From: Okamejei kenojei
Taxonomy: Eukaryota
DNA: 64,000 nucleotides
NCBI GenBank assembly: GCA_035221665.1
Contig: CM069142.1
Coordinates: 60,574,001-60,638,000, forward strand
Reading direction: 5' to 3'
Part shown: piece by piece, positions 20,795 to 59,660 of the stretch
Position numbering within the stretch: the stretch's first letter is position 1
Layout of the letters: the number at the start of each line of letters is the position of its first letter
Notes under the pieces: generated by a model
Databases searched by the model: none
The model's input: the letters and a program-made list of their open reading frames with translations, nothing else
Told to the model about the DNA's origin: nothing
Position numbers and translations under genes: made by a program

Positions 20795-20918
20795 CTAAAA
20801 AGTAAAGAAAAACAAAGTTATTAACGAGGAAATTCTGCAATAGTATAATTTTTTCATTATATTGTTATAAGCAGACAATTTTTTTAGTAAAGAGTGATAT
20901 TTTTGCACAGGATGTGAA

Positions 20919-31044: not shown

Positions 31045-31344
31045 TCGGCTTCACCGTGATGAATAGTGCAGTCGTTTTCGGCTGAGGAAGAGCTTTAATG
31101 TTGGCCAGACACATAATCTCAGCGCTGACACTAAGGGAAAGGGTTAAAGTGCTGAAGGTATTGTAGAGATTATCTGAAGACCGATGGACAATGGTGGAGT
31201 ACATTTTTGAATCCATGTTTGTGTTGGTTTTTTTCCATAGGATAGCTGGTGCAGGATTCCAACCTTCTGCCTTACAGACAATGGTGAAGACACGGTGTTG
31301 CTCAACAGATGGAATCTCCTTCGCAAAAGACAGCTGGCCATCAA
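31045..31344 (-). CDS. IGSF5: IGSF5-like second Ig (C-type) exon, copy A, intact
   Basis: cccacAG acceptor and A|GTAAGT donor; 300 nt, phase 1-1. Reads VDGQLSFAKE..IVCKAEGWNPAPAILW..STLTLS..IMCLANIKALPQPKTTALFITVKP, with the Ig Cys pair and Trp. Confidence 0.85.
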
Positions 31345-34324
31345 CTGTGGGAGAATAAGAACAGACATTTTGTTTTGTGCACTGTCTTAACAGTGATGAA
31401 CATGTCCTTTAAGCTAATAAATGCCCATGAATTGAAACAACTCTTAAAATGTCTTATTTTTCTTTACTTTAGACTATGGAGATGTAGTACGGAAACAGGC
31501 CCTTCGTCCATCAAGTCTGCGCCGATCAGCGATCACCCCGTACACTAGCACAATCCTACAATTTATAATTTAACCTAAGCCGATTAACCTACAACTTTCA
31601 CGTCTTTGAAATGTGGGGGGGGGAACTGGAGCACCCGGAGAAGACCCAGGAAGAAACATAAAAATTCTGTACAGACAGCACCCGTAGTCAGGATCGAACC
31701 CGACTCTCTTGCGCTGTAAGGCAGCAACTCTATTTTCCCTTGTTATATAACTGAGTTATGGTGGAACAGTGGTGCAAATGGTAGAGTTACTGCCTCGCAT
31801 CGCCAGATACCCGGGTTCGATCCTGACCTCGGGTACTGTCTGTATGGAGTTTGCATGTTCTCCCTGTGACCACATAGGTTTTCTCCGGGTCCTCCGCATA
31901 CATCCCACATCTCAAAGAAATGTGTGTCGGCAGGTTAATTAGCCTCTTTAAATTGCCCTAGTGTATAGGTGTGCAGAAATAGTATGTGAACGATGATCGA
32001 TGGTCAGCATGGACTTGATGGGTGAAGGGCCTGTTTCCATGCTCTATCTCTATAAAAAATTCCTATTCCCCTCCTTACGCATGTGAGATTCTGACATTTT
32101 ATTCTCTTTGATTGCCCTTCCTCCTAATTGCCTTATGAAAACTTGAACCACTTCAAGCACTCCATAGTGCTTGGATATAACTGAGTGACGAGCTGGGTGT
32201 CTTCACATGGTGGTTTAGAGTCAATTGCCTTATTGTGGGCATGGAGTCATACCCAGTGTCACGCAGTGCCCAGTGCCCAGACACCAGTGCCCAGTGTCAC
32301 GTAGCATTAAAGATTTCTCTCCTTAAACAGACGGAAGGATTGTTAGCATCCAACGCTTTTATAGACACATTTCCAAATTCTTATTTCTAGATATTTAAGA
32401 ATGCAATGCCAATTCTTAAACTGCCTTGGGAACTGACGCATATCGACAATGAGTTGGTGAATGGGGCATTAAGACTGCCAGGCTGAACACTGGAGATTAC
32501 AAGGAGCATCAAGGTGCTAAGCTCTATGTTCTTGCAGGAGGTTCTACAGCAATGTGAGACCATGGTCTCCATTCTGAAGGTCATGTGTATTTTTTTGTAA
32601 GGGCTCCGCACCAATCCCATCACACAGCACCTACTGGTACAGGCAATGGGCAGAGGTGGCCCATATACAGGCCACAGAAGACCTTTCTTTTGTCCATCAG
32701 ATCTCACTAGCTGGGGGTCAGCATTGGTTGGGATGGATTAGTGGGGCTGAAGGGCCTGTTTCCGTGCTGAATAACTCCATGACTCTATGCAAGCAAGAAG
32801 CTCGAAAGGACGACAGCGGAGCTATCAAGGAGCCGCTTGCCGTCTGTCTGAGTGGAGAGGTAGCAATCGTGTGCAAACCATTCCTCTGGATCAATTGCTG
32901 CTCTGATTGATCTCAGGCGTGCAGCCATGAGGAGCTCATGGTCCCAGAGGGGCAAGGTGATGCTGCTCGTCTAGTAACAGGATGCTACTGATGTATTGGA
33001 AGACATGGCATGTCGAGAGATTACCATCCACGAGCGAAATGCTCTGGCACAGAAGCATTGTGGCTCCTTTTTGCCCTCCTATTAAATACATGAGGTGTAT
33101 ATAGGGTAGGCATTCTTTCCCATGATAGCGGGTGTAAAAAAAAACAGGATGGCACAGGTTTAAGATGAGAGGAAAGAGATTTGAAAGGATTTGACGAGGA
33201 AGTGTTTTAAACTGAGAGTGATTGGCATGCTGGTGGAGCTGGTGTGATGCATTCACTACAATTAAGAGGCACCTAGAAAGGCACAGAACATAGAACATAG
33301 AAATGTACAGGAACAGGCCCATCAACCCAAAGTGTCCAAGGCAAATATGATGTCAAGTTAAACTAATCTGCTCTACCTGCATGTGATCCATATCCTTCCA
33401 TTCACCGCATACCCATGTGCCTGTCTGTAAGCCTATTGGCGATTCGGCCTCCACCGCTGCCCCTGTCACCCACCACTCTCTGTGTAAAAAAACCTTCCCT
33501 GCACATCTTCTGTAAACTTTGCACCTCTCATCTTAAAGCCTTGCCTCTGGTCTTGGACATTCCCACCTAGGAACAAGGTTCTGACTATTAACCTCCCTGT
33601 CACATGAACCAATCACTGACTATTAACCAATCTATACCCTATCTAAACCTGTTTAAATATATTTTAAACATTGTAATTGTACCAGTCATCTTGTTCCACA
33701 TCTCACCAGGGTATGTACGCTGCCCTTCGGATCCCCTTTAAATCTTTCCCTTTTCACCTTAAATGTCCTCTAATTTCCAACTCTCTTAACCTGCAAAATG
33801 GGCAGTGACCATCCACCTTGTGGAGGTATGCAAATGTTCCTCATGACTTTACATACTTCCATAAGGTCTCCTACACTCAGTCTCCCACACTTCAGGCAGA
33901 AGATGTCCAGACTATCGGGACTCTCCTTATAATTAAGCCACAGTACTCCAAGTGTGGTCTCACCAATGGCTTGTACAAATGTAATCAGGAATATCCCAAT
34001 TCCTATACTCAATGCCTCCGGGAGGTCTCATCAATGACCACACTACAACTTCCAATAAGCCCTGAACTACATAGACTATTATTGTTACTATTGATCTATT
34101 ATTTTTTGGGGTTTTTTTATGTCCACGTATGTGTGCGTTTGTGTGTGTGTATACATATGATTATATGTGTATGTATGTATGGGTATATATGTGTACGTTA
34201 CACTTTCTGCACCACCCTGTCATAAGGTCACAAGGTCATAAGCGATAGGAGTAGAATTAGGCCATTTGGACCATCAAGTTTACTTTGCCATTCAATCATG
34301 GCTGATCTATCTTTCCCTTCTACC

Positions 34325-35062
34325 CAGGGGTGGAAAACATGGGGGTGGGGGTGGCCAGAGGCGACACGTCCCCCCCATGTTTTGAGAGGTGGGGGACATC
34401 CCCCCCCCCAAGTTTTTGTAATCCAGATTTTAAAATCTCCGCTTTCCGCGAGACTGTGGCGGTGGGATTGTTGATAGAGGGCACCGATTGGACGAGAGAG
34501 ACGTCGGTCAGCAGGCAATGGGGACGGGACATGGTGATTCAGCGCGATGATTGGAGGAGGGAGGAGTTGGGGGGGGTGTGACTGAGGATAGAGTGTGGTG
34601 ATTGGAGGAGGGAGACGTGGCACAGACCTGCGCCTCATCCGCAGCCAGGACCGATCCCGGCCGGGTCTCCGGCGCTGTCCCGTCCCCACCCGAGTGCCCC
34701 CCCCCCCCCCCCCCCCCCATGGGCCAGAGACGTCGGCAGTCAGAAGCGAGCTGTACCCCCAGGCCCACAGCCAGCGCAGAGAAGCAGCGCTAAACCCAGC
34801 TCACTCTGCCAGGTGAACCAGCCTGGGCTTGCGGGAAATATGGGCAGCGCGGAGAAGAGGCGCTGGTGTCCCTTCAGTCCAGTCAGGGCTGTAGGTTAAC
34901 CCGGCGAGACAGGCAGAGTTGAGCTGCATTTAGCACTGGGTTGAGCCTCCGAAGCCTCGCGCATGTGTGTGTGAGTGTGCGCATGCGCGCGCGGTTGCCA
35001 AAAAATTGTGTCCCCCCTGTCCCCCAGTCCCCTCCATATTTTGTAAGCGAGTTCCGCATTTG
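34325..35062. mobile_element. GC-rich hAT-like non-autonomous element inside a CR1 tail (duplicate at 50353-51069)
   Basis: 8-bp TSD CTTCTACC / CTTCTAAC; imperfect termini CAGGGGTGGAA / TTCCGCATTTG; subterminal GGGGAC/GTCCCC repeats. Confidence 0.7.
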
Positions 35063-35664
35063 CTTCTAACCCTATTCTCCTGCCTTCTCCCAATAACATC
35101 TGACACCCGTACTAATCAAGAATCAATCACTGGCTTAAAAATATCCACTGACTTGGCCTCCACAGCCTTACGTGGCAAAGAATTCCACAGGTTCACCACC
35201 CTCCGACCAAAGAAATTTCTCCTCATCACTTTACTAATCCTTTAATTCTGTGGCCACGACCCTAGTTCCAGAATCTCCCACTAGAGGAAACATCCTCTCC
35301 AGATCTCTGTCTACCGGTGTCACCAATGAGTTGTGTGTATTTTATATATACCTTCAACATAAAACAAAAATCAAGGAAAAAAGGTGGGCAAGCCATAGCT
35401 AACAAGAAATCAAACATGTTTTTTTTCTTGAGTTCACGGAAGAGACACAAAACCTTTTGAGAGTAGTAAATAATTGTATGTCTAAAATGAATGAGGAGCT
35501 CAAGGTAAATAGTAAAAACCAAGCGACGGAGTCATTAATGAGACTTAACAATGATGGATCTGCAGTAGTTGCATCCAAGAAAACTGAAGGATGTCGCCAT
35601 GGTGATAGTGGAGGTCCTGGTTGTCATCTTCTAAAATTCCATAAATTCTGAAATAGAGTTAGAT

Positions 35665-35965
35665 GGGGCAGCATGGTAGAGGTGCTGCATTACAGCGCTA
35701 GAGACCCGGGTTCGATCCTGACTACGGGCTCCGTCTGTAAGGTGTTTGTACGTTCTCCCTGTGACCACGTGGGTTTTCTCTAGGTGTTCTGTTTTTCTCC
35801 CACGCTCCCAAGACGTACAGGTTTACAGGTTAATTGGCTTCGGTAAAGATTGTAAATTGTCCCTAGTGTGTGGTATAGTGCTAGTGTACGGGGTGAGCGC
35901 TGGTTGGTGCGGACTCGGTGGACCGAAGCGCTTGTTTTTGCGCTGTATCTCTAAACTAAAACTAA
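35665..35965 (+). mobile_element. HE1-like SINE (duplicate ~51677-51980)
   Basis: tRNA head with B box, V-domain and tail. Confidence 0.82.
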
Positions 35966-36949
35966 GGACTGGAAGGCAGCAAACAGAACCCACTTATAGA
36001 AAGGCAAGAGAGGGAAAATGTGGACCTTCAGATCAGAGTCAGTCTCATGTCAGCTGTGGGAAACCTGCTGAAATCAGTTACTAAAGAAGCAGCACCAGGG
36101 CATCTCGAAAATAATAATAAGATTGGACAGAGTCACTGTGGATTTATGAAAGGGAAATCATGTTTGACAAGTCTCGAAGTATTTTGAGGTTGTAACTGGC
36201 AGAATAGACAAGGGCAAACGAGTTGATCTGGAGCATTTGAAGTTTTAGAGGCCTTCACAAAGTTGTCACATGGAGATTATTAAAAGAGATAAAGATTGCA
36301 CAGTATTGCAGGATAACATACTAGGACGGATTTAGGATTGGTTAGCTGACAGAACACAGGGAGTGTTAATAAACAGCTTCTTTCAGGGTTGAGAGGGTGT
36401 GACTACAAGAGTGCCACAAGGAAAAGAGGGTCTGCGATGCCTTACCTAGAAAGGATACCAAGGTTATAATGTCAGAAGCTCAACATGCTCAAGAGAAAAC
36501 CTGGTCGCCTTCAGACATAGCAGACTGCAAACAGAGGGGAAGGAGCTGTTCCTTGGTCTGGTGATATACGTGCTTTCAAGCTTCTGTACTTTCTGCCGAT
36601 CAGGACAAAGGAGAAGAAGGAATGACTATTGTGGGACATTTGGACACGTGAGTGAAATCCGTATCTTTTCTACGTTCGTGAGAAGCCATCAAATCCCATT
36701 TTCTGAGGTGCCGCTGGTTGCTCAGTGAAGCCAAAGGGGATGGATAAAAAAATAAAAACCGCTTCCTTGCAAATGCAGGACTTGGGTGGCCTGTTTGAAT
36801 TTGTGCTTAGCAGAAAATGGTGAGACACGGAATAGATCTAACGTGGTCATTTGGGCAGATCTGATGGCAAGGAATCTGAGAATCCCCTTGACCTTGACGA
36901 TGGAGAGAGAAGTTCAGTGACAGGTGCAGAATGCCACATTTGGCGTTGA

Positions 36950-37370
36950 AAGTAGACACAAAATGGTGCAGTAACTCAGCCGATCAGGCAGCATCTCTGG
37001 AGAAAAGGAATGGGTGACGTTTCGGGTCGAGACCCTTCTTCAGACTGAGAGTCAGGGGAGAGGGAGGCATAGAGATATTGAAGGGTAAGGTGTGGAGGAA
37101 CAGCAGCTCAAATTTCGCTTGGGCAGCTTACAACCCAGCGGTATGAATATTGACTTCCATAACTTCAAGTAACCCTTGCTTTCCCACTCGATCTCTTGAT
37201 CTCTCGCTATCACATCATTCCCTCATAGAGATATGTCTCCCTCTCCCCTGACTCTCAGTGTGAGGAAGGGTCTCGGCCCAAAACAGCACCCATTCCTTTT
37301 CTCCAGAGATGCTGCCTGTCCCGCTGAGCCATTCCAGTATTTCGTGTCCAACTTCTGTGTTCCTTCCTAA
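36950..37370. mobile_element. Penelope-derived inverted structure (duplicate ~52965-53378)
   Basis: Inverted pLTR arms enclosing an EEQQLKFRLGSLQPSGMNIDF remnant. Confidence 0.75.
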
Positions 37371-37954
37371 CACACAGCTTTGAATGAATATTTCATCATT
37401 GAGGTCCAGGTAGGTTACACCGTCTCTTGAGATTTTCTAAAAGTTGCAACTGACATGATATTGCTTCCTGCCACATCATCACTGACCCACACAGTTTGGT
37501 TTCTCCTTCAGTGCGGCCAACAGTGGAGCTGCTGAATAGCTCAGCAGATAAATGACCTGTGAAATACTCCTTGGTAGCTCTGGAGCACCCTGTGAATTTT
37601 AGAATACATTTGTGCGACTCGCAATCAATAACACAATGCCAGCACTGTGTCCACTAAATAACAAGTAGACCAGCGATGAGCTCTATCTCAAATGAGACTA
37701 TTCCATAACCATCACAATTTGGAACTTTAAGCTCCAATTTGTGCCTTTAATGGCAAAAGACACCAGCTGCTAGTGCAGTCATGTCATCATGGTGTATTGA
37801 ATGTTGGTAAATGTCAGGAGTGTTTGTATGGATCACACAGCTAAGTGCCCAGTTCTTTAGGCTTTAGATTTTATAGATACAGTGTGGAAACAGGCCCTTC
37901 GGCCCATCAGGCCCGTGCTGCCCACTGATCAACACAGGTCTCTGGCGCTGTTAA

Positions 37955-38243
37955 TGCCCCTGTCCCACTTAGGAAACCTGAACGGAAACCTCTGGGGACT
38001 TTGTGCCCCACCCAAGGTTTCCATGCGGTTCCCAGAGGTTCCCAGAGGTTTTTGTCCTCCAGCAACCACCTTCAACTAGCATCGCAACCGGCTTCGACTA
38101 AAAAATTACCGATTTTTAAAACGGGAACCACTATCGACCATTAGGGAGACTGACAAAAACCTCCGGGAACCACACGGGAACCTTGGGTAGGGCGCAAAGT
38201 CTCCAGAGGTTTCCATTCAGGTTTCCTAAGTGGGACAGGGGCA
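37955..38243. mobile_element. PIF/Harbinger-like MITE inside a SINE (duplicate 53965-54256)
   Basis: TIRs TGCCCCTGTCCCACTTAGGAAACCTGAA / TTCAGGTTTCCTAAGTGGGACAGGGGCA; TAA/GAA flanks. Confidence 0.82.
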
Positions 38244-38759
38244 GAAGGCAGCAACTCTACCGCTGCGCCACTGTGGCAACAGTAGAGCGGCAGTATTATT
38301 TTGCAGTTGGTACAATTTCACCCTGAAATGATTGTCAGCACAATCTACTCCAGAGTAAAGATAAGACACAAAGTGCTGGTGTAACTCAGCGGGTATGCAG
38401 CATCTCTGAAGAACATGGGTGGGTGACGTTTTGGGGTCAGGACTGAAGAAGGTTTTCAATCTCAAGAAGAGCCCCAACTCAAAATATTACCAATCCATTT
38501 TCTCCAGAGATGCTGCCTGACTTGTTGAGTTACTCCAGCACTATGCATTTTTTTTTTATAACCAGCATCTACAGTTCCTTTTCTTCTTCCTCCAGGTTAA
38601 ATTAGGAAAAAATGTGATTTTGACATCTAGAAAGTGTGGATACATCATCCAATTTTCAAGCATAATTGTTCAACTTATGTCGGCGCAGTGTGGTGTGGTG
38701 GTGCAGCGGCAGAGTTGCTGCCTTACCACGCCACACACCCGAGTTCGATCCTGACTACT

Positions 38760-39320
38760 GATTCAAGATTCAAGATTCAAGAGAGTTTATTGTCATGTGT
38801 CCCAGATAGGACAATGACATTCTTGCTTTGCTTCAGCACAACAGAATATAGTAGGCATAAATAAATACAGAACAGATCAGTGTGACCAAATGCCATTGAA
38901 TATATATCTATACGCATATAAAAAAGCAGATAAAGTGCAATGGGCTATTAATGTTCAGAGTTTTGTTTGAGTTGAGTTTAATAGCCTGATGGCTGTGGGG
39001 AAGTAGCTATTCCTGAACCTGGATGTTGCAGATTTCAGGCCCCTGTACCCTTTTACCTGAAGGCAGTGGGGGGATGAGTGAGTGGCCAGGATGGTGTGGG
39101 TCCTTGATGATGCTGCCAGCCTTTTTGAGGCAGCGACTGCGATAGATTCCCTCGATGGTAGGGAGGTCAGAACCGATGATAGACTGGGCAGTGTTTACAA
39201 CTTTTTGCAGTCTTTTCCGCTCCTGGGCGTTCAAGTTGCCGAACCAAGCCACGATGCGACCGGTCAGCACGCTCTCTACTGTGCACCTGTAGAAGTTCGA
39301 GAGAGTCCTCCTTGACATAC
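38760..39320 (-). mobile_element. Rex1/Babar LINE 3' fragment inside an HE1-like SINE (duplicate ~54771-55328)
   Basis: NFYRCTVESVLT..AWFGN..LQKVVNTAQSIIG..IIKDPHHPGH..LPSGKR, the typical Rex1 C-terminus; (TTGAATC)n tail. Confidence 0.88.
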
Positions 39321-40314
39321 CTGTCTGTACAGTTGTACGTTCTCCATGTGACCACATGGGTGTTCTGGTTTTGTCTCACACTCCAAAAACGTGCAGGTTT
39401 GTAGGTTAATTGGCTTTGGTTAAAATCGCAAATTGTCCCCAACGTGTAGGTTGGGGCTGGTGTGTGGGGATCGCTGGTCGCGCGGACTCAGTGGTCCGAA
39501 GGGCCTGCCTCAGCACTAAACGAAAAAAAAACTAAAAGTTCCACTTCCTTAACCATGCTTAATGCACGCTTATGCAGCTCTAGGTTTAACATTAATAACG
39601 TTCCCGCAAAGCACCTTAGACCACCTTACTGCATTAATGCAAGCTGTGAGTGGAAACATATAGCGCTGCTTGCGTACCCACTGGGGAATGGATGTTTGTG
39701 ATTGTGTATGTAAGAGTAAATAAAAAGGACAAAGTAGGATAAAAAAAATACATTCTCATGTGTCTGAAGAGTGTGAACAGAACTGTACACACACAAAATC
39801 AAAACAGAAGATGAAAAGCAAAGCAAGGGGGCAATTGCAAAGGATTGCCATCAGTCTAGTACAGGCAACTGTCATGATGCATTTCTTTTGATCTTTCGGA
39901 GAGTCCCTGTAACCCCCCCTCTGTTTTCGCTCCCTTCTCTACCGCATCTTCCACTCAAACCTCTGATCTTGTTAGATGAAAGAGTAGTTTGATCGTCACA
40001 TCAATTTGAACTGTGGGTCGGCAGCAACGCAGAAGCAGGACCTAAAATAATGAGCTCACGCTGCCCCTTATCTTTATACCATCCTGACACAAATAATGAG
40101 GAAGTGCTATGTTGGTTTGAAGCAGAGGTCAAAACAATTTACAAGACAGAATGCAAGAACCAAAGCTGCATTAGAAATAATGAGCGAGATGAAAGAAGAG
40201 AACATTTTTTTATGCCAAGTAAAATGTTGCAAAATTAGTTTTTAAGCGACAGAAGGAATCCAGGTTGAACTTTACCTTAAACGGTGATGCAGCGGAAGAG
40301 TTGGTTCCTTACAG

Positions 40315-40713
40315 AAAAGATCCTATAGCAAGCAAGATAGATCACTCGACGAAAAAGACGTAGTACGGGCATGGGCAGATTCATGGGTAATTTTCGGCCC
40401 CATTTCCGTAACCGGCTTCTGTCTCTGCACCAAAGATCCCATAGCGGAGCAAAGATACTAGTGCGGAGACGGAAGTCGGTTACGGAAACATCCTTGTAAA
40501 AATAAAAGTTATTTGGGAAAAATCTTCTCCTCATTTTCAGAATTATAATTTATTAACACAAACTGTTCCCCCGCAACGCTGATTACACTGCGAGTGGGGT
40601 TGGGTTACGGAAATGGATGAAAAAAAGGCCCATGATCCACTTTGTTGCGTACTACACGTCAGCCCATTGCATTTAGAAGGAGTGATCTATCGTACTTCGC
40701 TATAGGGTCTTTG
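40315..40713. mobile_element. Non-autonomous DNA transposon with ~33-bp TIRs and 8-bp TSD, P-element-like termini (duplicate 56330-56727)
   Basis: AAAAGATCCTATAGCAAGCAAGATAGATCACTC / GAGTGATCTATCGTACTTCGCTATAGGGTCTTTG; TSD CCTTACAG on both sides; inserted in a SINE head. Confidence 0.8.
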
Positions 40714-42929: not shown

Positions 42930-43327
42930 ACCTAGACACAAAATGCTGGAGCAATTCAGCGAGTGAGGCAGCATCTCTGGAGAGAAGGAATGGGCGACGT
43001 TTCGGGTCGAGACCCTTCTTCAGACTGATGTCAGGGGAGGGGTGGGGCAAAGATAGAATGTAGTTGGAGACAGTAAGACTGGTGGGAGAAGGGGGAGGGG
43101 ATGGAGAGAGAAAAGAAGGGCTATCTGAAGTTAGAGAAGTCAATGTTCATACCACTGGGGTCTATACTACCCAAGTGAAATATGAGGTGCTGTTCCTCTA
43201 ATTTGCACTGAGCCTCACTCTGACAATGGAGGAGGCCCAGAAAGGTCAGATTGGGAATGGGAGGGGGAGTTGAAGTGCTGAGCCACCGGGAGATCGGGTA
43301 GGTTAAGGAAGACTGAGCAAAGGTGTT
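42930..43327 (-). mobile_element. Penelope-like element 3' fragment (GIY-YIG tail + pLTR) abutting the Ig exon donor (duplicate ~58933-59327)
   Basis: Reverse strand encodes PVAQHFNSPSHSQSDL..LEEQHLIFHLGS; contains CTGAAGAAGGGTCTCGACCCGAAACGTC. Confidence 0.82.
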
Positions 43328-43346
43328 CAGTGAAAATTATACTGAC

Positions 43347-43661
43347 CTTGTACAAACAGAAATGCCTGTCGATTTCCGTCAGTTTGAATGCTGCACGTTA
43401 CTGCCATATTGCTGAGCGTGGTCACTGGTGAGATGATAAGTTCGGAAGTAAATGTGCTACTAGTTGTGTAGTTCTTATGTTGAAACTGGGGATTTGTAAT
43501 AACTGGTCCCTCTTTTACAATGGTAAGGATGGGGTTGTCATCTATTATCCAGATGATAATTTTCCAAGGCAATGATACAGTGCAGTTGAATGCGGCATCA
43601 GAGTGAAGCAAAGCAAAGGCGTTTTTTGGACCTTCTATAATTGCAGTCGATAAACACACAC
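43347..43661 (-). CDS. IGSF5: IGSF5-like first Ig (V-type) exon, copy A, intact
   Basis: cttttAG acceptor and G|GTCAG donor; 315 nt, phase 1-1. Reads IIEGPKNAFALLHSDAAFNCTVSLPWKIIIW..PVITNPQF..FTSELII..VTCSIQ..AFLFVQ, which resembles mammalian IGSF5 as I recall it (VIEGPQNA..ARFNCTVSQGWKLIMW..PIITNDRF..FTSEMII..CSLQ..AYLTVQ). Confidence 0.88.
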
Positions 43662-47054: not shown

Positions 47055-47358
47055 TCGGCTTCACCGTGATGAATAGTGCAGTCGTTTTCGGCTGAGGAAG
47101 AGCTATAATGTTGGCCAGACACATAATCTCAGCGCTGACACTAAGGGAAAGGTTTAAAGTGCTGAAGGTATTGTAGAGATTATCTGAAGACTGATGGACA
47201 GTGGTGGAGTACATTTTTGAATCCATGTTTGTGTTGTTTTTTTTCCATAGGATAGCTGGTGCAGGATTCCAACCTTCTGCCTTACAGACAATGGTGAAGA
47301 CACGGTGTTGCTCAACAGATGGAATCCTCCTTCGCAAAAGACAGCTGGCCATCAAAAA
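47055..47358 (-). CDS. IGSF5: IGSF5-like second Ig exon, copy B (+3 and +1 insertions; frameshifted as written)
   Basis: Same splice sites as copy A; 304 nt; 5 amino-acid-changing substitutions. Confidence 0.6.
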
Positions 47359-50300
47359 CTGTGGGAGAATAAGAACAGACATTTTGTTTTGTGCACTGTC
47401 TTAACAGTGATGAACATGTCCTTTAAGCTAATAAATGCCCATGAATTGAAACAACTCTTAAAATGTCTTATTTTTCTTTACTTTAGACTATGGAGATGTA
47501 GTACGGAAACAGGCCCTTCGTCCATCAAGTCTGCGCCGATCAGCGATCACCCCGTACACTAGCACAATCCTACAATTTATAATTTAACCTAAGCCGATTA
47601 ACCTACAACTTTCACGTCTTTGAAATGTGGGGGGGGGAACTGGAGCACCCGGAGAAGACCCAGGAAGAGACATAACAAATCTGTACAGACAGCACCCGTA
47701 GTCAGGATCGAACCCGACTCTCTTGCGCTGTAAGGCAGCAACTCTATTTTCCCTTGTTATATAACTGAGTTATGGTGGAACAGTGGTGCAAATGGTAGAG
47801 TTACTGCCTCGCATCGCCAGATACCCGGGTTCGATCCTGACCTCGGGTACTGTCTGTATGGAGTTTGCATGTTCTCCCTGTGACCACATAGGTTTTCTCC
47901 TCCGGGTGCTCCGCATACATCCCACATCTCAAAGAAATGCGTGTCGGCAGGTTAATTAGCCTCTTTAAATTGCCCTAGTGTATAGGTGTGCAGAAATAGT
48001 ATGTGAACGATGATCGATGGTCAGCATGGACTTGATGGGTGAAGGGCCTGTTTCCATGCTCTATCTCTATAAAAAATTCCTATTCCCCTCCTTACGCATG
48101 TGAGATTCTGACATTTTATTCTCTTTGATTGCCCTTCCTCCTAATTGCCTTATGAAAACTTGAACCACTTCAAGCACTCCATAGTGCTTGGATATAACTG
48201 AGTGACGAGCTGGGTGTCTTCACATGGTGGTTTAGAGTCAATTGCCTTATTGTGGGCATGGAGTCATACCCAGTGTCACGCAGTGCCCAGTGCCCAGACA
48301 CCAGTGCCCAGTGTCACGTAGCATAAAAGATTTCTCTCCTGAAACAGACGGAAGGATTGTTAGCATCCAACGCTTTTATAGACACATTTCCAAATTCTTA
48401 TTTCTAGATATTTAAGAATGCAATGCCAATTCTTAAACTGCCTTGGGAACTGACGCATATCGACAATGAGTTGGTGAATGGGGCATTAAGACTGCCAGGC
48501 TGAACACTGGAGATTACAAGGAGCATCAAGGTGCTAAGCTCTATGTTCTTGCAGGAGGTTCTACAGCAATGTGAGACCATGGTCTCCATTCTGAAGGTCA
48601 TGTGTATTTTTTTGTAAGGGCTCCGCACCAACCCCATCACACAGCACCTACTTGTACAGGCAATGGGCAGAGGTGGCCCATATACAGGCCACAGAAGACC
48701 TTTCTTTTGTCCATCAGATCTCACTAGCTGGGGGTCAGCATTGGTTGGGATGGATTAGTGGGGCTGAAGGGCCTGTTTCCGTGCTGAATAAACTCCATGA
48801 CTCTATGCAAGCAAGAAGCTCGAAAGGACGACAGCGGAGCTATCAAGGAGCCGCTTGCCGTCTGTCTGAGTGGAGAGGTAGCAATCGTGTGCAAACCATT
48901 CCTCTGGATCAATTGCTGCTCTGATTGATCTCAGGCGTGCAGCCATGAGGAGCTCATGGTCCCAGGGGGGCAAGGTGATGCTGCTCGTCTAGTAACAGGA
49001 TGCTACTGATGTATTGGAAGACATGGCATGTCGAGAGATTACCATCCACGAGCGAAATGCTCTGCCACAGAAGCATTGTGGCTCCTTTTTGCCCTCCTAT
49101 TAAATACATGAGGTGTATATAGGGTAGGCATTCTTTCCCATGATAGCGGGTGTAAAAAAAAAACAGGATGGCACAGGTTTAAGATGAGAGGAAAGAGATT
49201 TGAAAGGATTTGACGAGGAAGTGTTTTGAACTGAGAGTGATTGGCATGCTGGTGGAGCTGGTGTGATGCATTCACTACAATTAAGAGGCACCTAGAAAGG
49301 CACAGAACATAGAACATAGAAATGTACAGGAACAGGCCCATCAACCCAAAGTGTCCAAGGCAAATATGATGTCAAGTTAAACTAATCTGCTCTACCTGCA
49401 TGTGATCCATATCCTTCCATTCACCGCATACCCATGTGCCTGTCTGTAAGCCTCTTAATTGGCCCTATCGATTCGGCCTCCACCGCTGCCCCTGTCACCC
49501 ACCACTCTCTGTGTAAAAAAACCTTCCCTGCACATCTTCTGTAAACTTTGCACCTCTCATCTTAAAGCCTTGCCTCTGGTCTTGGACATTCCCACCTAGG
49601 AACAAGGTTCTGACTATTAACCTCCCTGTCACATGAACCAATCACTGACTATTAACCAATCTATACCCTATCTAAACCTGTTTAAATATATTTTAAACAT
49701 TGTAATTGTACCAGTCATCTTGTTCCACATCTCACCAGGGTATGTACGCTGCCCTTTGGATCCCCTTTAAATCTTTCCCTTTTCACCTTAAATGTCCTCT
49801 AATTTCCAACTCTCTTAACCTGCAAAATGGGCAGTGACCATCCACCTTGTGGAGGTATGCAAATGTTCCTCATGACTTTACATACTTCCATAAGGTCTCC
49901 TACACTCAGTCTCCCACACTTCAGGCAGAAGATGTCCAGACTATCGGGACTCTCCTTATAATTAAGCCACAATACTCCAAGTGTGGTCTCACCAATGGCT
50001 TGTACAAATGTAATCAGGAATATCCCAATTCCTATACTCAATGCCTCCGGGAGGTCTCATCAATGACCACACTACAACTTCCAATAAGCCCTGAACTACA
50101 TAGACTATTATTGTTACTATTGATCTATTATTTTTTGGGGGTTTTTTATGTCCACGTATGTGTGCGTTTGTGTGTGTGTATACATATGATTATATGTGTA
50201 TGTATGTATGGGTATATATGTGTACGTACACTTTCTGCACCACCCTGTCATAAGGTCACAAGGTCATAAGCGATAGGAGTAGAATTAGGCCATTTGGACC

Positions 50301-53300
50301 ATCAAGTTTACTTTGCCATTCAAGCATGGCTGATCTATCTTTCCCTTCTACCCAGGGGGGTGGAAAACATGGGGGTGGGGGTGGCCAGAGGCGACACGTC
50401 CCCCCCATGTTTTTGAGAGGTGGGGGACATCCCCCCCCCAAGTTTTTGTAATCCAGATTTTAAAATCTCCGCTTTCCGCGAGACTGTGGCGGTGGGATTG
50501 CTGATAGAGGGCACCGATTGGACGAGAGAGACGTCGGTCAGCAGGCAATGGGGACGGGACATGTTGATTCAGCGCGATGATTGGAGGAGGGAGGAGTGGG
50601 GTGTGGACTGAGGATAGAGTGTGGTGATTGGAGGAGGAGACGTGGCACAGACCTGCGCCTCATCCGCAGCCAGGACCGATCCTGGCCGGGTCTCCGGCGC
50701 TGTCCCGTCCCCACCCGAGTGCCCCCCCCCCCCCCTGGGGCCAGAGACGTCGGCAGTCAGAAGCGAGCTGTACCCCCAGGCCCACAGCCAGCGCAGAGAA
50801 GCAGCGCTAAACCCAGCTCACTCTGCCTGGTTAAACTGCCTGGGCTTGCGGGAAATATGGGCAGCGCGGAGAAGCAGCGCTGGTGTCCCATCAGTCCAGT
50901 CAGGGTTGTAGTTAACCCGGCAAGACAGGCAGAGTTGAGCTGCATTTAGCGCTGGGTTGAGCCTCCGAAGCCTCGCGCATGTGTGTGTGAGTGTGCGCAT
51001 GCGAGCGCGGCCGCCAAAAAATTGTGTCCCCCAGTCCCCTCCATATTTTGTAAGCGGGTTCCGCATTTGCTTCTAACCCTATTCTCCTGCCTTCTCCCAT
51101 TAACATCTGACACCCGTACTAATCAAGAATCAATCGCTGGCTTAAAAATATCCATTGACTTGGCCTCCACAGCCTTATGTGGCAAAGAATTCCACAGATT
51201 CACCACCCTCCGACCAAAGAAATTTCTCCTCATCACTTTACTAATCCTTTAATTCTGAGGCCACGACCCCTAGTCCCAGAATCTCCCACTAGAGGAAACA
51301 TCCTCTCCAGATCTCTGTCTACCGGTGTCACCAATGAGTTGTGTGTATTTTATATATACCTTCAACATAAAACAAAAATCAAGGAAAAAAGGTGGGCAAG
51401 CCATAGCTAACAAGAAATCAAACATGTTTTTTTTCTTGAGTTCACGGAAGAGACACAAAACCTATTGAGAGTAGGCTAAATAATTGTATGTCTAAAATGA
51501 ATGAGGAGCTCAAGGTAAATAGTAAAAACCAAGCGGCGGAGTCATTAATAAGACTTAACAATGATGGATCTGCAGTAGTTGCATCCCCAAGAAAACTGAA
51601 GGATGTCGCCATGGTGATAGTGGAGGTCCTGGTTGTCATCTTCTAAAATTCCCCTAAATTCTGAAATAGAGTTAGATGGGCAGCACGGTAGAAGGTGCTG
51701 CATTACAGTGCTAGAGACCCGGGTTCGATCCTGACTACGGGCTCCGTCTGTAAGGTGTTTGTACTTTCTCCCTGTGACCACGTGGGTTTTCTCTAGGTGT
51801 TCTGTTTTTCTCCCACGCTCCCAAGACGTACAGGTTTACAGGTTAATTGGCTTCGGTAAAGATTGTAAATTGTCCCTAGTGTGTGGTATAGTGCTAATGT
51901 ACGGGGTTGAGCGCTGGTTGGTGCGGACTCGGTGGAACCGAAGCGCTTGTTTTTGCGCTGTATCTCTAAACTAAAACTAAGGACTGGAAGGCAGCAAACA
52001 GAACCCACTTATAGAAAGGCAAAGAGAGGAAAATGTGTACTGACCTTCAGATCAGAGTCAGTCTCATGTCAGCTTGTGGGAAACCTGCTGAAATCAGTTA
52101 CTAAAGAAGCAGCACCAGGGCATCTCGAAAATAATAATAAGATTGGACAGAGTCACTGTGGATTTATGAAAGGGAAATCATGTTGACAAGTCTCGAAGTA
52201 TTTTGAGGTTGTAACTGGCAGAATAGACAAGGGCAAACGAGTTGATCTGGAGCATTTGAAGTTTTAGAGGCCTTCACAAGGTTGTCCACATTGGAGATTA
52301 TTAAAAGAGATAAAGATTGCACGTAATTGCAGGATAACATACTAGGACGGATTTAGATTGGTTTAGCTGAGCAGAACACAGGGAGTGTTAATAAACGCTT
52401 CTTTCAGGGTTGAGAGGTGTGACTACAAAGAGTGCCACAAGGAAAAGAGGGTCTGGCGATGCCTTACCTAGAAAGGATACCAAGGTTATAATGTCAGAAG
52501 CTCAACATGCTCAAGAGAAAACCTGGTCGCCTTCAGACATAGCAGACTGCAAACAGAGGGGAAGGAGCTGCCTTGGTCTGGTGAATATACTGCTTTCAAG
52601 CTCGTACTTTCTGCCGATCAGACAAAGGAGAAGAAGGAATGACTATTGTGGACATTTGGACACGTGAGTGAAATCCGTATCTTTTTCTCGTCGTGAAAGC
52701 CATCAAATCCCATTTTCTGAGGTGGCCGCTGGTTGCTCAGTGAAGCCAAAGGGGATGGATAAAAAAATAAAAACTTCCTTGCCAAATGCAGGACTTGGGT
52801 GGCCTGTTTGAATTTGTGGCTTAGCAGAAAATGGTGAGACACGGAATAGATCTAACGTGGTCATTTTGGGCAGATCTGATGGCAAGGAATCTGAGAATCG
52901 CCTTGACCTTGACGATGGAGAGAGAAGTTCAGTGACAGGTGCAGAATGCCACATTTGGCGTTGAAAGTAGACACAAAATGGTGCAGTAACTCAGCCGATC
53001 AGCAGCATCTCTGGAGAAAAGGAATGGGTGACGTTTCGGGTCGAGACCCTTCTTCAACTGAGAGTCAGTGGAGAGGAGGCATAGAGATATTGAAGGGTAA
53101 GGGTGGAGGAACAGCAGCTTAAATTTCGCTTGGGCAGCTTACAACCCAGCGGTATGAATATTGACTTCCATAACTTCAAGTAACCCTTGCTTTCCGCTCG
53201 ATCTCTTGGATCTCTCGCTATCACCTCATTCCCTCATAGAGATATGTCTCCCCTCCCCTGACTCTCAGTGTGAGGAAGGGTCTCGACCCAAAACAGCACC

Positions 53301-56300
53301 ATTCCTTTTTCTCAGAGATGCTGCCTGTCCCCTGAGCCATTCCAGCATTTCGTGTCCAACTTCTGTGTTCCTTCCTAACACACAGCTTTGAATGAATATT
53401 TTATCATTGAGGTCCAGGTAGTTACAACACCGTCTCTTGAGATTTTCTAAAGTTGCAACTGACATTGATATTGCTTCCTGCCACATCACCACTGACCCAC
53501 ACAGTTTGGTTTCTCCTTCAGTGCGGCCCACAGTGGAGCTGCTGAATAGCTCAGCAGATAAATGACCTGTGAAATACTCCTTGGTAGCTCTGGAGCACCC
53601 TGTGAATTTTAGAATACATTTGTGCGACTCACAATCAATAACACAATGCCAGCATTGTGTCCACTAAATAACAAGTAGACCAGCGATGAGCTCTATCTCA
53701 AATGAGACTATTCCATAACCATCACAATTTGGAACTTTAAGCTCCAATTTGTGCCTTTAATGGCAAAAGACACCAGCTGCTAGTGCAGTCATGTCATCAT
53801 GGTGTATTGAATGTTGGTAAATGTCAGGAGTGTTTGTATGGATCACACAGCTAAGTGCCCAGTTCTTTAGGCTTTAGATTTTATAGATACAGTGTGGAAA
53901 CAGGCCCTTCGGCCCATCAGGCCCGTGCTGCCCACTGATCAACCCAGGTCTCTGGCGCTGTTAATGCCTCTGTCCCACTTAGGAAACCTGAACGGAAACC
54001 TCTGGAGACTTTGTGCCCCACCCAAGGTTTCCATGCGGTTCCCAGAGGCTCCCAGAGGTTTTTGTCCTCCAGCAACCACCTTCAACTAGCATCGCAACCG
54101 GCTTCGCTAAAAAAATTACCGATTTTTAAAACGGGAAACCACTATCGACCATTAGGGAGGGACTGACAAAAACCTCCGGGAACCACACGGGAACCTTGGG
54201 TAGGGCGCAAAGTCTCCAGAGGTTTCCATTCAGGTTTCCTAAGTGGGACAGGGGCAGAAGGCAGCAACTCTACCACTGCGCCACTGTGGCAACAGTAGAG
54301 CGGCAGTATTATTTTGCAGTTGGTACAATTTCACCCTGAAATGATTGTCAGCACAATCTACTCCAGAGTAAAGATAAGACACAAAGTGCTGGTGTAACTC
54401 AGCGGGTATGCAGCATCTCTGAAGAACATGGGTGGGTGACGTTTTGGGGTCAGGACTGAAGAAGGTTTTCAATCTCAAGAAGAGCCCCAACTCAAAATAT
54501 TACCAATCCATTTTCTCCAGAGATGCTGCCTGACTTGTTGAGTTACTCCAGCACTATGCATTTTTTTTTATAACCAGCATCTACAGTTCCTTTTCTTCTT
54601 CCTCCAGGTTAAATTAGGAAAAAATGTGATTTTGACATCTAGAAAGTGTGGATACATCATCCAATTTCAAGCATAATTGTTCAACTTATGTCGGCGCAGT
54701 GTGGTGTGGTGGTTGCAGCGGCAGAGTTGCTGCTTACCACGCCACACACCCGAGTTCGATCCTGACTACTGATTCAAGATTCAAGATTCAAGAGAGTTTA
54801 TTGTCATGTGTCCAGATAGGACCAATGACATTCTTGCTTTGCTTCAGCACAACAGAATATAGTAGGCATAAATAAATACAGAACAGATCAGTGTGACAAA
54901 TGCCATTGAATATATATCTATACGCATATAAAAAAGCAGATAAAGTGCACATGGGTACTAATGTTCAGAGTATTGTTGAGTTGAGTTTAATAGCCTGATG
55001 GCTGTGGGGAAGTAGCTATTCCTGAACCTGGATGTTGCAGATTTCAGGCTCCTGTACCCTTTTACCTGAAGGCAGTGGGGAGATGAGTGAGTGGCCAGGA
55101 TGGTGTGGGTCCTTGATGATGCTGCCAGCCTTTTTGAGGCAGCGACTGCGATAGATTCCCTCGATGGTAGGGAGGTCAGAACCGATGATAGACTGGGCAG
55201 TGTTTACAACTTTTTGCAGTCTTTTCCGCTCCTGGGCGTTCAAGTTGCGAACCAAGCCACGATGCGACGGTCAGCACGCTCTCTACTGTGCACCTGTAGA
55301 AGTTCGAGAGAGTCCTCCTTGGACATACCTGTCTGTACAGTTGTACGTTCTCCATGTGTCCACATGGGTGTTCTGGTTTTGGTCTCACACTCCAAAAACG
55401 TGCAGGTTTGTAGGTTAATTGGCTTTGGTTAAAATCGCAAATTGTCCCCAACGTGTAGTTGGGGCTGGTGTGTGGGGATCGCTGGTCGCGCGGGACTCAG
55501 TGGTCGAAGGGCCTGCCTCAGCACTAAACGAAAAAAAAACTAAAAGTTCCATTCCTTAACCATGCTTAATGCACGCTTATGCAGCTCTAGGGTTTAACAT
55601 TATAACGTTCCCGCAAAGCACCTTAGACCACCTTACTGCATTAATGCAAGCTTGTGAGTGGAAACATATAGCGCTGCTTGCGTACCCACTGGGGAATGGA
55701 TGTTTGTGATTGTGTATGTGAGAGTAAATAAAAAGGACAAAGTAGGATAAAAAAAACTACATTCTCATGTGTCTGAAGAGGTGAACAGAAACTGTACACA
55801 CACAAAAATCAAAACAGAAGATGAAAAGCAAAGCAAGCAAGGGGGCAATTGCAAAGGATTGCCATCAGTCTAGTAACAGGCAACTGTCATGATGCATTTC
55901 TTTTGATCTTTCGGAGAGTCCCTGTAACCCCCCCTCTGTTTTCGCTCCCTTCTCTACCGCATCTTCCACTCAAACCTCTGATCTTGTTAGGTGAAAGAGT
56001 GGTTTGATCGTCACATCAATTTGAACTGTGGGTCGGCAGCAACGCAGAAGCAGGACCTAAAATAATGAGCTCACGCTGCCCTTATCTTTACACCATCCTG
56101 ACACAAATAATGAGGAAGTGCTATGTTGGTTTGAAGCAGAGGTCAAAACAATTTACAAGACAGAACGCAAGAACCAAAGCTGCATTAGAAATAATGAGCG
56201 AGATGAAAGAAGAGAAAATATTTTTAACGCCAAGTAAAATGTTGCAAAATTAGTTTTTAAGCGACAGAAGGAATCCAGGGTGAACTTTACCTTAAACGGT

Positions 56301-59300
56301 GATGCAGCGGAAGAGTTGGTTCCTTACAGAAAAGATCCTATAGCAAGCAAGATAGATCACTCGACGAAAAAGACGTAGTACGGGCATGGGCAGATTCTGG
56401 GTAAATTTTCGGCCCATTTCCGTAACCGGCTTCCGTCTCTGCACCAAAGATCCCATAGCGGAGCAAAGATACTAGTGCAGGGACGGAAGTCGGTTACGGA
56501 AACATCCTTGTAAAAATAAAAGTTATTTGGGAAAAATCTTCTCCTCATTTTCAGAATTATAATTTATTAACACAAACTGTTCCCCCCGCAACGCTGATTA
56601 CACTGCGAGTGGGGTCGGTTTACGGAAATGGATGAAAAAAAGGCCCATGATCCACTTTGTTGCGTACTACACGTCAGCCCATTGCATTCTCAGGAGTGAT
56701 CTATCGTACTTCGCTATAGGGTCTTTGCCTTACAGCGCCAGACCTCCGGGTCAGATCCTGACTACGGGTGCTTGTCTGTACGGAATATTACCTTCTCCTC
56801 CTGACCTGTATGGTTTTTCTCCGAGATCTTCGGGTTCCTCTCACACTCCAAAGACATCCAGGTTTGTAGGTTAATTGGCTTGGTATAAATGTAAATTGTC
56901 CTTAGTGTATGTGGGATCGTGTTAATGTGCAAGAATCATGGGCCAAAGGGCCTGTTTCCACATTGTATCTCTAAATTCAGAGCTGCAGTTGAATGTTCTT
57001 TTCTCAAAGCATAAAGTGCTGGAATAATTCAACGGGTCAGGCAACAAATATGATGGAATGGACAGCAATATTAGAGGTCGGGACCCTTCTTCAGTCCCAT
57101 CCCAAAATGTGTCTGTCCATTTCCTCCGCAGATGCCGCTGACCCGCTGAGTTATCTGTACTTTGTATCTTACTCAGGATTCCAGTATCTGCAGTTCCTTG
57201 TGTCTCCAATGTTCTTTTCTGTTGGTTAGTACAGATCGCCATGACGTTATAAAATGGCTGAGCAGGCAAGAGGGTCTGAGTATCTTTTGCTGCTCCTATT
57301 CATACGCGATACAGAAAAGAGGGAAGGAGAGAGAATTGGAATGAAATACACAAGGAAATATCATGCTGAAATACTAAGAGGTAGCATATCATCAAAACTT
57401 GAAAATTGTGCATTTCAACCTTTGCCTGACTTTCCAAGCATACCGCAATGGTCCTGTGATCATTGTCACCTTCTCTGCATCCAACTTTTTTATCATTTCC
57501 TTTTTTCCTGTCACTTTCTCCTGCATCAAATGCCTTCGGTCAGTTTAATCACACCTAATCAACCCTTTTGTTTCTTTTCTCCCTTTATAAAGGAGTGGAG
57601 AGAAATGAGCACAAAAACAAAACACCAACCTTTTTTCTAATAAAATAGCAGGGTAATTATTTCAGAAAATATGTCAAAAATAATGATAGTCATATGGAAA
57701 CCAAGTACATAAAATTAACGTGAGCCATTTGTAGCCACCAGCTTGATTTTAAAAGGAGAATTACTCAATCATCTCCCCTCTGCAGGCCATCGTGTCGGAC
57801 CATGCAGTCTTGTTGAAACTTGTTCAAATCAAATAGCTTTGATTTCCAATGAAAGGATATTGTCACCGAATCTGAAACCTGTCTCTTTCCTATCAATGCT
57901 CTCGGACCTCCAAATATAATTGCATTTTCAGTTTTCCAGGAATCATACAATTTTCCGACCCGACCTAAAACATCACCTATCCATGTTCTCCAGCGGTGCT
58001 GCACGTGGATCTTTTTATTTAAGGGGTGTCAGGGGTTATGGGGAGAAGGCAGGAGGATGGGGTTAAGAGGGAGAGATAGATCAGCCATGATTGAACGGAG
58101 GAGTAGACTTGATGGGCCGAATGGCCTAATTCTCCCCCTATCATTTATGAACATGAAAACAGCATCTGTAGTTCCTTGTTCCTACTTTCACCAATTGTTC
58201 CTTTCAGAAAAAAATTGTCCCACTCCACTCAATACTCTGAAAATGGTTTCTTAAGAATTTCTCCAATTCCCTTTGGAAAATATTATTTAAGCTGCTCCAA
58301 ACACTCATTCAGGTAATGTCAGATCAAACAATATACTTTTATTCAAAAAATCCTGTCCTATTATTAAAATATTCATCATTGATGACCCTGTCTTCTCTGT
58401 TAAACCCTTACACAATTTGAACAGAGATTGTTAAAAAAAAAGGGGATTGAATAGATTATTAATCATTTTTGTTAACTATCTTTGGTTCAAACAGACAACA
58501 GTCCCAGATTCCAGATTCTGACTCAAGAAATACTGTGCATCTACACTATCTATTCTGGAATAGATTATGTTGAATGCACAGAGTCCTTTCCCCAAAATAG
58601 GGGAATCAGAGAACATGGTGAGTGGGGAAAGATTTAATAGGAACCTGAGGGGCAACTTTTTCACATAGATGGTGGTGGAACATGCTGCCCAGGAGGTAGT
58701 CGATGCAAAGTACCATAAGAAATTTAACAGTATTTGGACAGGTACATAGATAGGAAGGGTTTAGAGTGGCTATGGGCTACACCTGGCAGATGGGACTAGT
58801 ATAGATGGGGCATCTTGGTCGGCTTGGGCAAGTTGGGACGAAGAGCCTTCTCACATGCTGTATGACTCTATGACTCTATATCTCTACGTTTAGAAAGTAG
58901 ATGTTGTTTATTTGCACCAAAGAATTATACTGACCTAGACACAAAATGCTGGAGCAATTCAGCAAGTGATGCAGCATCTCTGGAGAGAAGGAATGGGCGA
59001 CGTTTCGGGTCGAGACCCTTCTTCAGACTGATGTCAGGGGAGGGGTGGGGCAAAGATAGAATGTAGTTGGAGACAGTAAGACTGGTGGGAGAAGGGGGAG
59101 GGGATGGAGAGAGAAAAGAAGGGCTATCTGAAGTTAGAGAAGTCAATGTTCATACCACTGGGGTTATACTACCCAAGTGAAATATGAGGTGCTGTTCCTC
59201 TAATTTGCACTGAGCCTCACTCTGACAATGGAGGAGGCCAGAAAGGTCAGATTGGGGAATGGGAGGGGGAGTTGAAGTGCTGAGCCACCGGGAATCGGGT

Positions 59301-59346
59301 AGGTTAAGAAGACTGAGCAAAGGTGTTCAGTGAAAATTATACTGAC

Positions 59347-59660
59347 CTTGTAAAACAGAATGCTGTCGATTTCCGTCAGTTTGAATGCTGCACGTTACTG
59401 CCATATTGCTGTGCGTGGTCACTGGTGAGATGATAAGTTCGGAAGTAAATGTGTACTTAGTTGTGTAGTTCTTATGTTCAAACTGGGGATTTGTATTAAC
59501 TGGTCCCTCTTTTACAATGATAAGGATGGGGTTGTCATCTATTATCCAGATGATAATTTTCCAAGGCAATGATACAGTGCAGTTGAATGCGGCATCAGAG
59601 TGGAAGCAAAGCAAAGGCGTTTTTTGGGACCTTCTATAATTGCAGTCGATAAACACACAC
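59347..59660 (-). CDS. IGSF5: IGSF5-like first Ig exon, copy B (several 1-bp indels; frameshifted as written)
   Basis: Same splice sites as copy A; 314 nt; 4 amino-acid-changing substitutions plus 7 single-base indels. Confidence 0.6.

What the first reader, a model, noticed from the sequence alone, without database searches (positions are those of the whole stretch)
31045..59660. All 9 substitutions between the duplicated Ig exons are non-synonymous; two create N-glycosylation sequons
Seen by manual alignment (A->B). V exon: T>I, I>N, Q>E, L>H. C exon: T>N, I>T, R>Q, T>N, K>I. There are no synonymous changes. KKTNT>KKNNT and STLTLS>STLNLS create new N-x-S/T sites. The C exon has 5 substitutions in 300 nt, while the neighbouring ~3 kb (27912-31040) shows only about 2. 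Inference: diversifying selection on the ectodomain of an adhesion or possible pathogen receptor, whether the copies are paralogues or alleles. Caveats: if about three quarters of random changes are non-synonymous, 9/9 has a probability near 0.08, so relaxed selection is not excluded, and intron divergence near the V exon is of similar magnitude.
Basis: partly seen in the sequence, partly recalled or inferred. Interest (0 to 1): 0.7.

Follow-up and report, generated by a model that had tools for sequence, protein, structure and literature searches.

The report
Skate IGSF5 with doubled Ig exons
A skate's cell-adhesion gene IGSF5 carries a recent 16-kb internal duplication of its two Ig-domain exons whose nine differences all change amino acids, likely because the doubled domains are drifting under relaxed constraint (an arms race is possible but not shown), while the frameshifts in one copy are likely assembly errors and the two 'new' sugar sites are old ones missing from the other copy.

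Summary
Contigs of public runs bridge the A/B junction in two studies, show three V-exon variants in one sample, and carry none of 12 tested B indels: the duplication looks real and B's frameshifts look like assembly errors. Only the V and C exons of IGSF5 are doubled, both phase 1-1, so a V-C-V-C receptor is predicted, as in 4Ig B7-H3. Both 'created' sequons stand in 9 of 9 relative sequences, so copy A lacks them. 9/9 has P 0.05-0.09 under neutrality (11/11 with two low-depth contig variants: 0.02-0.06); omega of 0.5 or less fits badly, omega above 1 is not established. The five C-exon changes were not tested with reads. Best reading: relaxed constraint after exon duplication (0.5); diversifying selection 0.27. 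The scan held no note near this place; it noted error-ridden second copies elsewhere in this genome.

The parts
63863..63908 (-). IGSF5 first coding exon (signal peptide), single copy, 46 coding nt, phase 1
   Evidence: tblastn 16/16 to Amblyraja IGSF5; donor site
43914..59910 (.). Copy B of the 16-kb tandem duplicate (upstream in the gene); rich in single-base indels that look like assembly errors
   Evidence: 12 of 12 tested indels in A's form in contigs; third copies of a LINE side with A at 20 of 22 differing columns
59347..59660 (-). V-domain exon, copy B: 4 substitutions and 7 single-base indels against A; 314 nt, frameshifted as assembled
   Evidence: all 4 B letters seen in contigs, none of the 7 indels
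47055..47358 (-). C-domain exon, copy B: 5 substitutions, +3 at the acceptor and +1 nt; keeps both conserved sequons; 304 nt, frameshifted as assembled
   Evidence: not tested with reads
43912..43914 (.). Duplication junction: unique intron end joined to a SINE tail (copy of 27912 on) with one extra T and no long homology
   Evidence: sequence; bridged by a 78-nt contig in X1 and a 683-nt contig in X5
27912..43912 (.). Copy A of the tandem duplicate (downstream in the gene)
43347..43661 (-). V-domain exon, copy A: intact, 315 nt, phase 1-1
31045..31344 (-). C-domain exon, copy A: intact, 300 nt, phase 1-1; lacks both sequons found in all relatives
   Evidence: Pfam C2-set_3 E 4e-9
23576..23695 (-). 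Transmembrane exon, single copy (acceptor 23695 or 23692)
14140..20795 (-). Three cytoplasmic exons, single copy, at about 20769-20795, 18029-18145 and 14140-14199; the last exon was not located
   Evidence: tblastn

Best explanation
The window shows a 16-kb tandem duplication inside skate IGSF5 (JAM4) that doubles only the V and C exons; it is likely a real, recent, non-homologous duplication predicted to give a V-C-V-C receptor, the frameshifts of copy B are likely assembly errors, and the all-non-synonymous differences are likely variants drifting among the domain copies under relaxed purifying selection. Shown: the duplicate, exon order and phases, the junction in public contigs, several V-exon variants in one sample, and the ancestral state of the sequons. 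Inferred: that copy B is in frame in the animal; that the four Ig exons are spliced together or skipped pairwise as in B7-H3; that redundancy (inner domains as spacers, or either pair dispensable by skipping) removed the constraint, which is why residues and glycan sites invariant from skates to whale shark are now being lost.
For: Junction bridged in X5 (contig 43280-43960, no gap) and X1 (43883-43960, 0 differences, depth 15.1 against 26.7 beside it); X1 has three V-exon variants at depths 7, 14 and 4.1. 12 of 12 tested indels stand in A's form, also on contigs carrying B's substitutions, and the relative X6 agrees with A at the 2 it covers; 10 third copies of a LINE side with A at 20 of 22 differing columns and with B at 2 plain substitutions. 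Exons are phase 1-1; signal, TM and tail exons are single; the genome holds 2 copies of each Ig exon. Omega 0.5 gives P(9/9) 0.006, omega 1 gives 0.05; random non-exonic windows of the duplicate reach 9 non-synonymous-equivalent changes with P 0.07-0.09. 5 of the 11 variant sites are invariant in 9 of 9 relative sequences, three of them sequon positions, which fits loss of constraint. B's I46 and N54 lie on different contigs in X1 and the junction-linked contig of X5 carries B letters, so these are not fixed A/B differences.
Against: 11/11 non-synonymous has P 0.024-0.057 under neutrality and the one-sided 95% lower bound on omega is 1.24; the joint pattern (9 or more non-synonymous, none synonymous) has P 0.005-0.008; 4 of 6 V sites fall within 15 residues of C'-C''-D (P 0.08); the V domain was already fast among skates. 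The C exon was not tested with reads. A's letters at V60 and V82 were in none of the 3 runs that cover them. Contigs drop variants, some differences went uncounted in X1, X5 and X6, and 1 indel row was not shown. X1 may be the assembly's own sample and its contig has only 30-31 letters left of the junction; no single contig runs from the junction through the multi-copy LTR piece into unique B sequence. No spliced V-C-V-C product was seen.
Confidence: 0.5

Rival explanations
1. The duplication is real and the ectodomain copies are under diversifying or balancing selection, for example to escape a pathogen or to change adhesion specificity.
For: 11 of 11 known variants are non-synonymous (P 0.024-0.057); 9 seen against 3.5 expected from non-exonic density (Poisson P 0.010); lower bound on omega 1.24 with 11 sites; V domain 20/100 different between Amblyraja and Leucoraja against 22/262 for the rest (Fisher P 0.003); 4 of 6 V sites on C'-C''-D.
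Against: Chosen after the fact; with clustering the density excess is P 0.07-0.09; with the 9 assembly sites the lower bound on omega is 0.98; the 2 added variants each rest on one contig of depth about 4, which the tool flags as possibly erroneous; T46, P52, N39 and N67 are invariant in relatives, not hypervariable; no listed paper pointed to IGSF5 as an entry receptor (listing only).
Confidence: 0.27
2. The duplication is real but several of the nine differences are consensus errors or chimeras of four haplotypes collapsed into two copies, so the 9/9 count is inflated.
For: 174 indels against 131 substitutions show a noisy consensus; A's letters at V60, V82 and 43861 are absent from the contigs laid, and B's pairing of I46 with N54 is on no listed X1 or X5 contig; both sequon changes shift the edge of a homopolymer run; 6 of 9 exon changes are transversions against 23 of 72 isolated non-exonic ones (P 0.06).
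Against: All 4 B letters of the V exon and both letters at V46 and V54 are in contigs; copy A showed no indel error at 12 tested sites; errors would also hit synonymous sites.
Confidence: 0.13
3. Copy B is a real dead duplicate: its frameshifts exist, its exons are skipped, and it evolves without constraint.
For: B is frameshifted in both exons as assembled; its C-exon +1 was not tested with reads.
Against: None of the 7 V-exon indels is in the contigs of X1, X5 or X19, which do carry B's substitutions; B, not A, keeps the ancestral residue at 4 of 5 C-exon sites.
Confidence: 0.05
4. False duplication: two alleles of a single-copy region were placed in tandem by the assembler.
For: One copy is error-rich; in X5 a single contig runs through the V exon into the junction with no visible second exit; earlier notes report error-ridden second copies in this genome (unchecked).
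Against: The junction sequence is in contigs of two studies, and one sample shows three V-exon variants.
Confidence: 0.05

Closest known systems
IGSF5 / JAM4 of cartilaginous fishes (Amblyraja radiata XP_032888397.1; Leucoraja erinacea XP_055501114.1)
   Same: Signal, V, C, TM and tail in the same order; C exon 81% identical to Amblyraja; signal exon 16/16. Mammalian JAM4 binds MAGI-1 at tight junctions (PMC9302484, passages read).
   Different: All 10 hits have one V and one C (322-412 aa) and the 9 relative sequences compared keep five sequons; here V and C are doubled, copy A keeps 2 of the 5 sequons and copy B 4 of the 5.
4Ig B7-H3 (CD276), V-C-V-C by tandem exon duplication (PMC3172298, abstract and first Results section read)
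   Same: In-gene tandem duplication of the V and C exon pair; 2-Ig and 4-Ig forms arise there by alternative splicing.
   Different: Different gene and lineage; B7-H3's four-domain transcript is shown by RT-PCR and shared by many mammals, whereas this one is about 0.8% diverged, still variable within samples and has no transcript evidence.
Teleost IGSF5 gene models with repeated Ig exons (turbot XP_047186525.1 V-C-V-C-V; conger XP_061073595.1 V-V-C; Xyrauchen XP_051971944.1 V-C-C)
   Same: Near-identical internal repeats of IGSF5 Ig domains; 3 such IGSF5-named models among the 150 hits listed.
   Different: They are predicted models that I did not check against reads; independent events in bony fish.

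Membership tests
IGSF5 / JAM4 | Best sequence matches are IGSF5 orthologues | tested here: met
   9 of 10 hits named IGSF5 or IGSF5-like, best 81%; the unnamed one clusters with Leucoraja IGSF5
IGSF5 / JAM4 | Signal peptide, V domain, C domain, one TM helix, cytoplasmic tail | tested here: met
   exons found; model of the Amblyraja orthologue has two Ig sandwiches and one TM helix, pLDDT 95-98 over the Ig domains
IGSF5 / JAM4 | C-terminal PDZ-binding motif | tested here: inconclusive
   last exon not located in the window; the skate relatives end in TTV or TAV
IGSF5 / JAM4 | Binds MAGI-1 and sits at tight junctions | not testable with these tools
   known for mammalian JAM4 (PMC9302484 passages)
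IGSF5 / JAM4 | Conserved gene neighbourhood | not tested
   neighbouring genes were not fetched
4Ig B7-H3-type V-C exon duplication | Tandem in-gene duplication of the V and C exons only | tested here: met
   junction in contigs of two studies
4Ig B7-H3-type V-C exon duplication | Symmetric exon phases that keep the frame | tested here: met
   V 315 nt and C 300 nt, both phase 1-1 in copy A
4Ig B7-H3-type V-C exon duplication | Both copies in frame | tested here: inconclusive
   B frameshifted as assembled; its 7 V indels absent from contigs; its C indels untested
4Ig B7-H3-type V-C exon duplication | A spliced four-domain transcript | tested here: inconclusive
   one 194-nt contig inside the V exon in a run guessed to be RNA, no exon joint; no such protein among the 10 hits
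Positively selected pathogen receptor | omega significantly above 1 | tested here: inconclusive
   lower bound 0.98 (9 sites) or 1.24 (11 sites), post hoc; empirical density P 0.07-0.09
Positively selected pathogen receptor | Changes cluster on a binding face | tested here: inconclusive
   4 of 6 V sites within 15 residues, P 0.08; surface exposure not computed
Positively selected pathogen receptor | A pathogen ligand | not testable with these tools
   one search listed 1 paper, on another subject by its title
False (haplotype) duplication | Junction absent from reads, at most two alleles per individual | tested here: not met
   junction bridged in X1 and X5; three variants in X1, one of them at depth 4.1

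The most novel reading that the evidence does not exclude
A skate has very recently doubled the ectodomain of IGSF5 into a V-C-V-C receptor whose domain copies exchange variants and are under diversifying selection, shedding and regaining ancient glycans and varying the C'-C''-D region; pairwise exon skipping would give each animal several receptor versions. That would be an adhesion receptor caught at the start of an arms race, still polymorphic.
Probability: 0.2. Interest if true: 0.62.

Novelty: new member of a known kind. Interest (0 to 1): 0.3.

Why it matters
If real and expressed, this is a very young case of the step that made 4Ig B7-H3, still segregating, so it lets one watch whether doubled Ig domains first drift or are driven. 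If omega above 1 held, it would point to an unknown ligand or pathogen of the little-studied JAM4. Practically it shows that hand-aligned dN/dS on this assembly must take its indel errors into account: a likely functional exon pair looks like a pseudogene.

Tried and rejected
No RNA holder listed in the run search; X19 is only guessed to be RNA. The relative X6 had no cover over most of the V exon at 88% likeness, so no DNA-level dN/dS to an outgroup was possible; this blank is not used as evidence. No reads were laid on either C exon. A search for short proteins like the C exon found none among 3 candidates, so no further alleles came from protein data. The first MAFFT alignment (218 substitutions, 137 indels) misread paired indels as substitution runs and was replaced. 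The second third-copy search gave only 69-82% matches and was not used; the LINE test used the 10 best of 38 full-length third copies listed, ranked by likeness to copy A, which leans towards A. Fold search gave generic two-Ig proteins (Rst, SYG-1, titin, PTP delta) and the sequence search of solved structures showed no IGSF5 among the 60 of 69 shown, so no known interface could be mapped. PMC156145 is not held. Literature searches (listings only) showed no title or abstract start on IGSF5 duplication or selection in fishes; the listed papers and their supplements were not opened except PMC9302484. Rejected: 'sequons created in B'; 'fixed paralogue differences'; 'C exon is a divergence hot spot' (11 of 53 windows as dense).

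Full report
What is there. The window holds a tandem duplicate, copy A 27912-43912 and copy B 43914-59910, 97.7% alike. It lies inside a minus-strand gene whose best matches are IGSF5 (JAM4) of skates, rays and sharks (10 hits, best 81% to Amblyraja radiata). The exon order in the gene is signal exon (63908-63863), V-B, C-B, V-A, C-A, TM exon, and at least three tail exons; only V and C are doubled, and the genome holds just these two copies of each. In copy A the V exon is 315 nt and the C exon 300 nt, both phase 1-1, so any V-C pair can be added or skipped in frame.

The observation. Over the whole duplicate there are 131 substitutions and 174 indel events, 149 of them single-base. From general knowledge, that ratio is far from natural divergence and typical of a noisy long-read consensus.

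Which copy is wrong. I laid contigs of four public runs (of 24 listed) on 43280-44880. Ten A/B indels lie in 43280-43912; the contigs of X5 (one, 43280-43960) and X1 (two, 43280-43498 and 43524-43912) cross them without a gap, although they carry B's letters at some substitutions. Two more indels in the start of B (44670, 44839) are read in A's form by X1, X5 and the related species X6. So 12 of 12 tested indels stand in A's form. Limits: contigs drop variants, some differences were not counted in three runs, and one indel row was not shown. Independently, ten other genomic copies of a LINE at 38760-39320 side with A at 20 of 22 differing columns (all indel-type columns and one substitution beside an indel) and with B at two plain substitutions (copies ranked by likeness to A). 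B's frameshifts are therefore likely assembly errors; the C-exon +1 is inferred by analogy only.

Is the duplication real. The junction joins unique intron to a SINE tail with one extra T and no long homology, which suggests non-homologous repair (inference). It is bridged by a 683-nt contig in X5 and a 78-nt contig in X1, of two studies; one of them may be the assembly's source. In X1 the junction has depth 15.1 against 26.7 beside it, and the V exon shows three variants at depths 7, 14 and 4.1, close to 1:2:1 of four copies. Against this: X5 shows no second exit, no contig reaches through the LTR piece behind the junction, summed contig depth is no copy number, and the depth-4 variant may be an error. 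The copies differ by 0.8% outside exons against 20 substitutions in about 710 nt to species X6, so the event is young.

The substitutions. All four B letters of the V exon are in contigs; both letters are seen at V46 and V54; A's letters at V60 and V82 are in none of the three runs that cover them. B's I46 and N54 lie on different contigs in X1, and the junction-linked contig of X5 carries B letters. The sites thus behave as variants shared among copies, not as fixed paralogue differences. Two further variants, P52A (X1) and A86S (X19, guessed RNA), are also non-synonymous, each on one contig of depth about 4; A86S would give back an N-x-S site. The five C-exon sites were not tested with reads.

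Direction. Nine relative sequences (two from one 90% cluster) all keep five sequons (positions 41, 79, 100, 160, 188 of Amblyraja). Copy B keeps 160 and 188, copy A lacks both, and both lack 100. B matches most relatives at C39, C51, C54 and C67, A at C83, V46 and V54; V60 and V82 are unclear.

Selection. Under neutrality P(9/9) is 0.047-0.089 and P(11/11) 0.024-0.057. Nine non-synonymous changes against 3.5 expected gives Poisson P 0.010, but differences are clustered: 11 of 53 windows of 300 nt have 5 or more, and random non-exonic window pairs reach nine with P 0.07-0.09; the joint pattern with no synonymous change has P 0.005-0.008, found after the fact. Omega of 0.5 gives P 0.006; the one-sided lower bound on omega is 0.98 with nine sites and 1.24 with eleven. 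So normal purifying selection fits badly, and omega of 1 and above 1 cannot be told apart. For selection: the V domain differs at 20/100 between Amblyraja and Leucoraja against 9/102 in the tail (P 0.028), and 4 of 6 V sites fall on C', C'' and D of the model of the Amblyraja orthologue (clustering P 0.08; strand names are my reading of the model). For relaxation: five of the eleven sites are invariant in all relatives and three are glycan sites, which a redundant domain would be free to lose.

How it likely works. A non-homologous tandem duplication copied the V and C exons; symmetric phases let the gene make V-C-V-C or, by skipping, V-C forms; the redundancy lifted constraint and variants now move among the copies. 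The duplication and the variants are shown; the spliced product, the redundancy and the exchange are inferred.

What is known. The same architecture change made 4Ig B7-H3 in mammals, with both forms made by alternative splicing (PMC3172298, abstract and first Results section). IGSF5 gene models of turbot, conger and Xyrauchen also show repeated Ig domains (unchecked models). Mammalian JAM4 binds MAGI-1 at tight junctions (PMC9302484, passages). Searches for IGSF5 with positive selection (7 papers), with skate and duplication (1) and with virus and entry receptor (1) showed nothing on this by title or abstract start (listings only). The scan had no note near this place; two unchecked notes report error-like breaks in second gene copies of this genome.

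Verdict. A likely real, young internal exon duplication of a known kind, with a suggestive but unproven amino-acid excess; the headline claim of gained glycans is reversed and the arms-race reading is a minority possibility. Interest 0.3.

Noticed in passing
window 24040-27859: Remains of an LTR retrotransposon (integrase zinc-binding domain at 27224-27748; Gypsy label recalled) flanked by LTR-like pieces in inverted orientation (24040-24164 against 27739-27859, 91%), with pol-like pieces on both strands and a 204-nt near-perfect palindrome at 26416-26619: a fold-back rearrangement or an assembly artefact next to the left breakpoint.
   Followed up: partly
window 27785-28066: A small tandem duplication of about 145 nt (LTR end plus SINE tail) holds the left breakpoint of the 16-kb duplicate.
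   Followed up: partly
window 27912-31044 against 43914-47054: The first 3.1 kb of the two copies differ by only 2 substitutions but 13 indels, then substitutions rise: a possible gene-conversion tract, or a collapse in the assembly.
   Followed up: no
window 8123-11996: Near-complete LINE with a GDSL-esterase ORF1 (310 aa) and an endonuclease/RT ORF2 of 790 aa broken once near its end (CR1 label recalled).
   Followed up: partly
window 4158-5579: Tc1-type DNA transposon: DDE transposase pieces between inverted repeats 4158-4273 and 5464-5579.
   Followed up: partly
proteins P0011, P0050, P0051: IGSF5-like models in which the V domain joins the TM exon directly, without the C domain, suggesting that Ig exon skipping already occurs in this family.
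   Followed up: no
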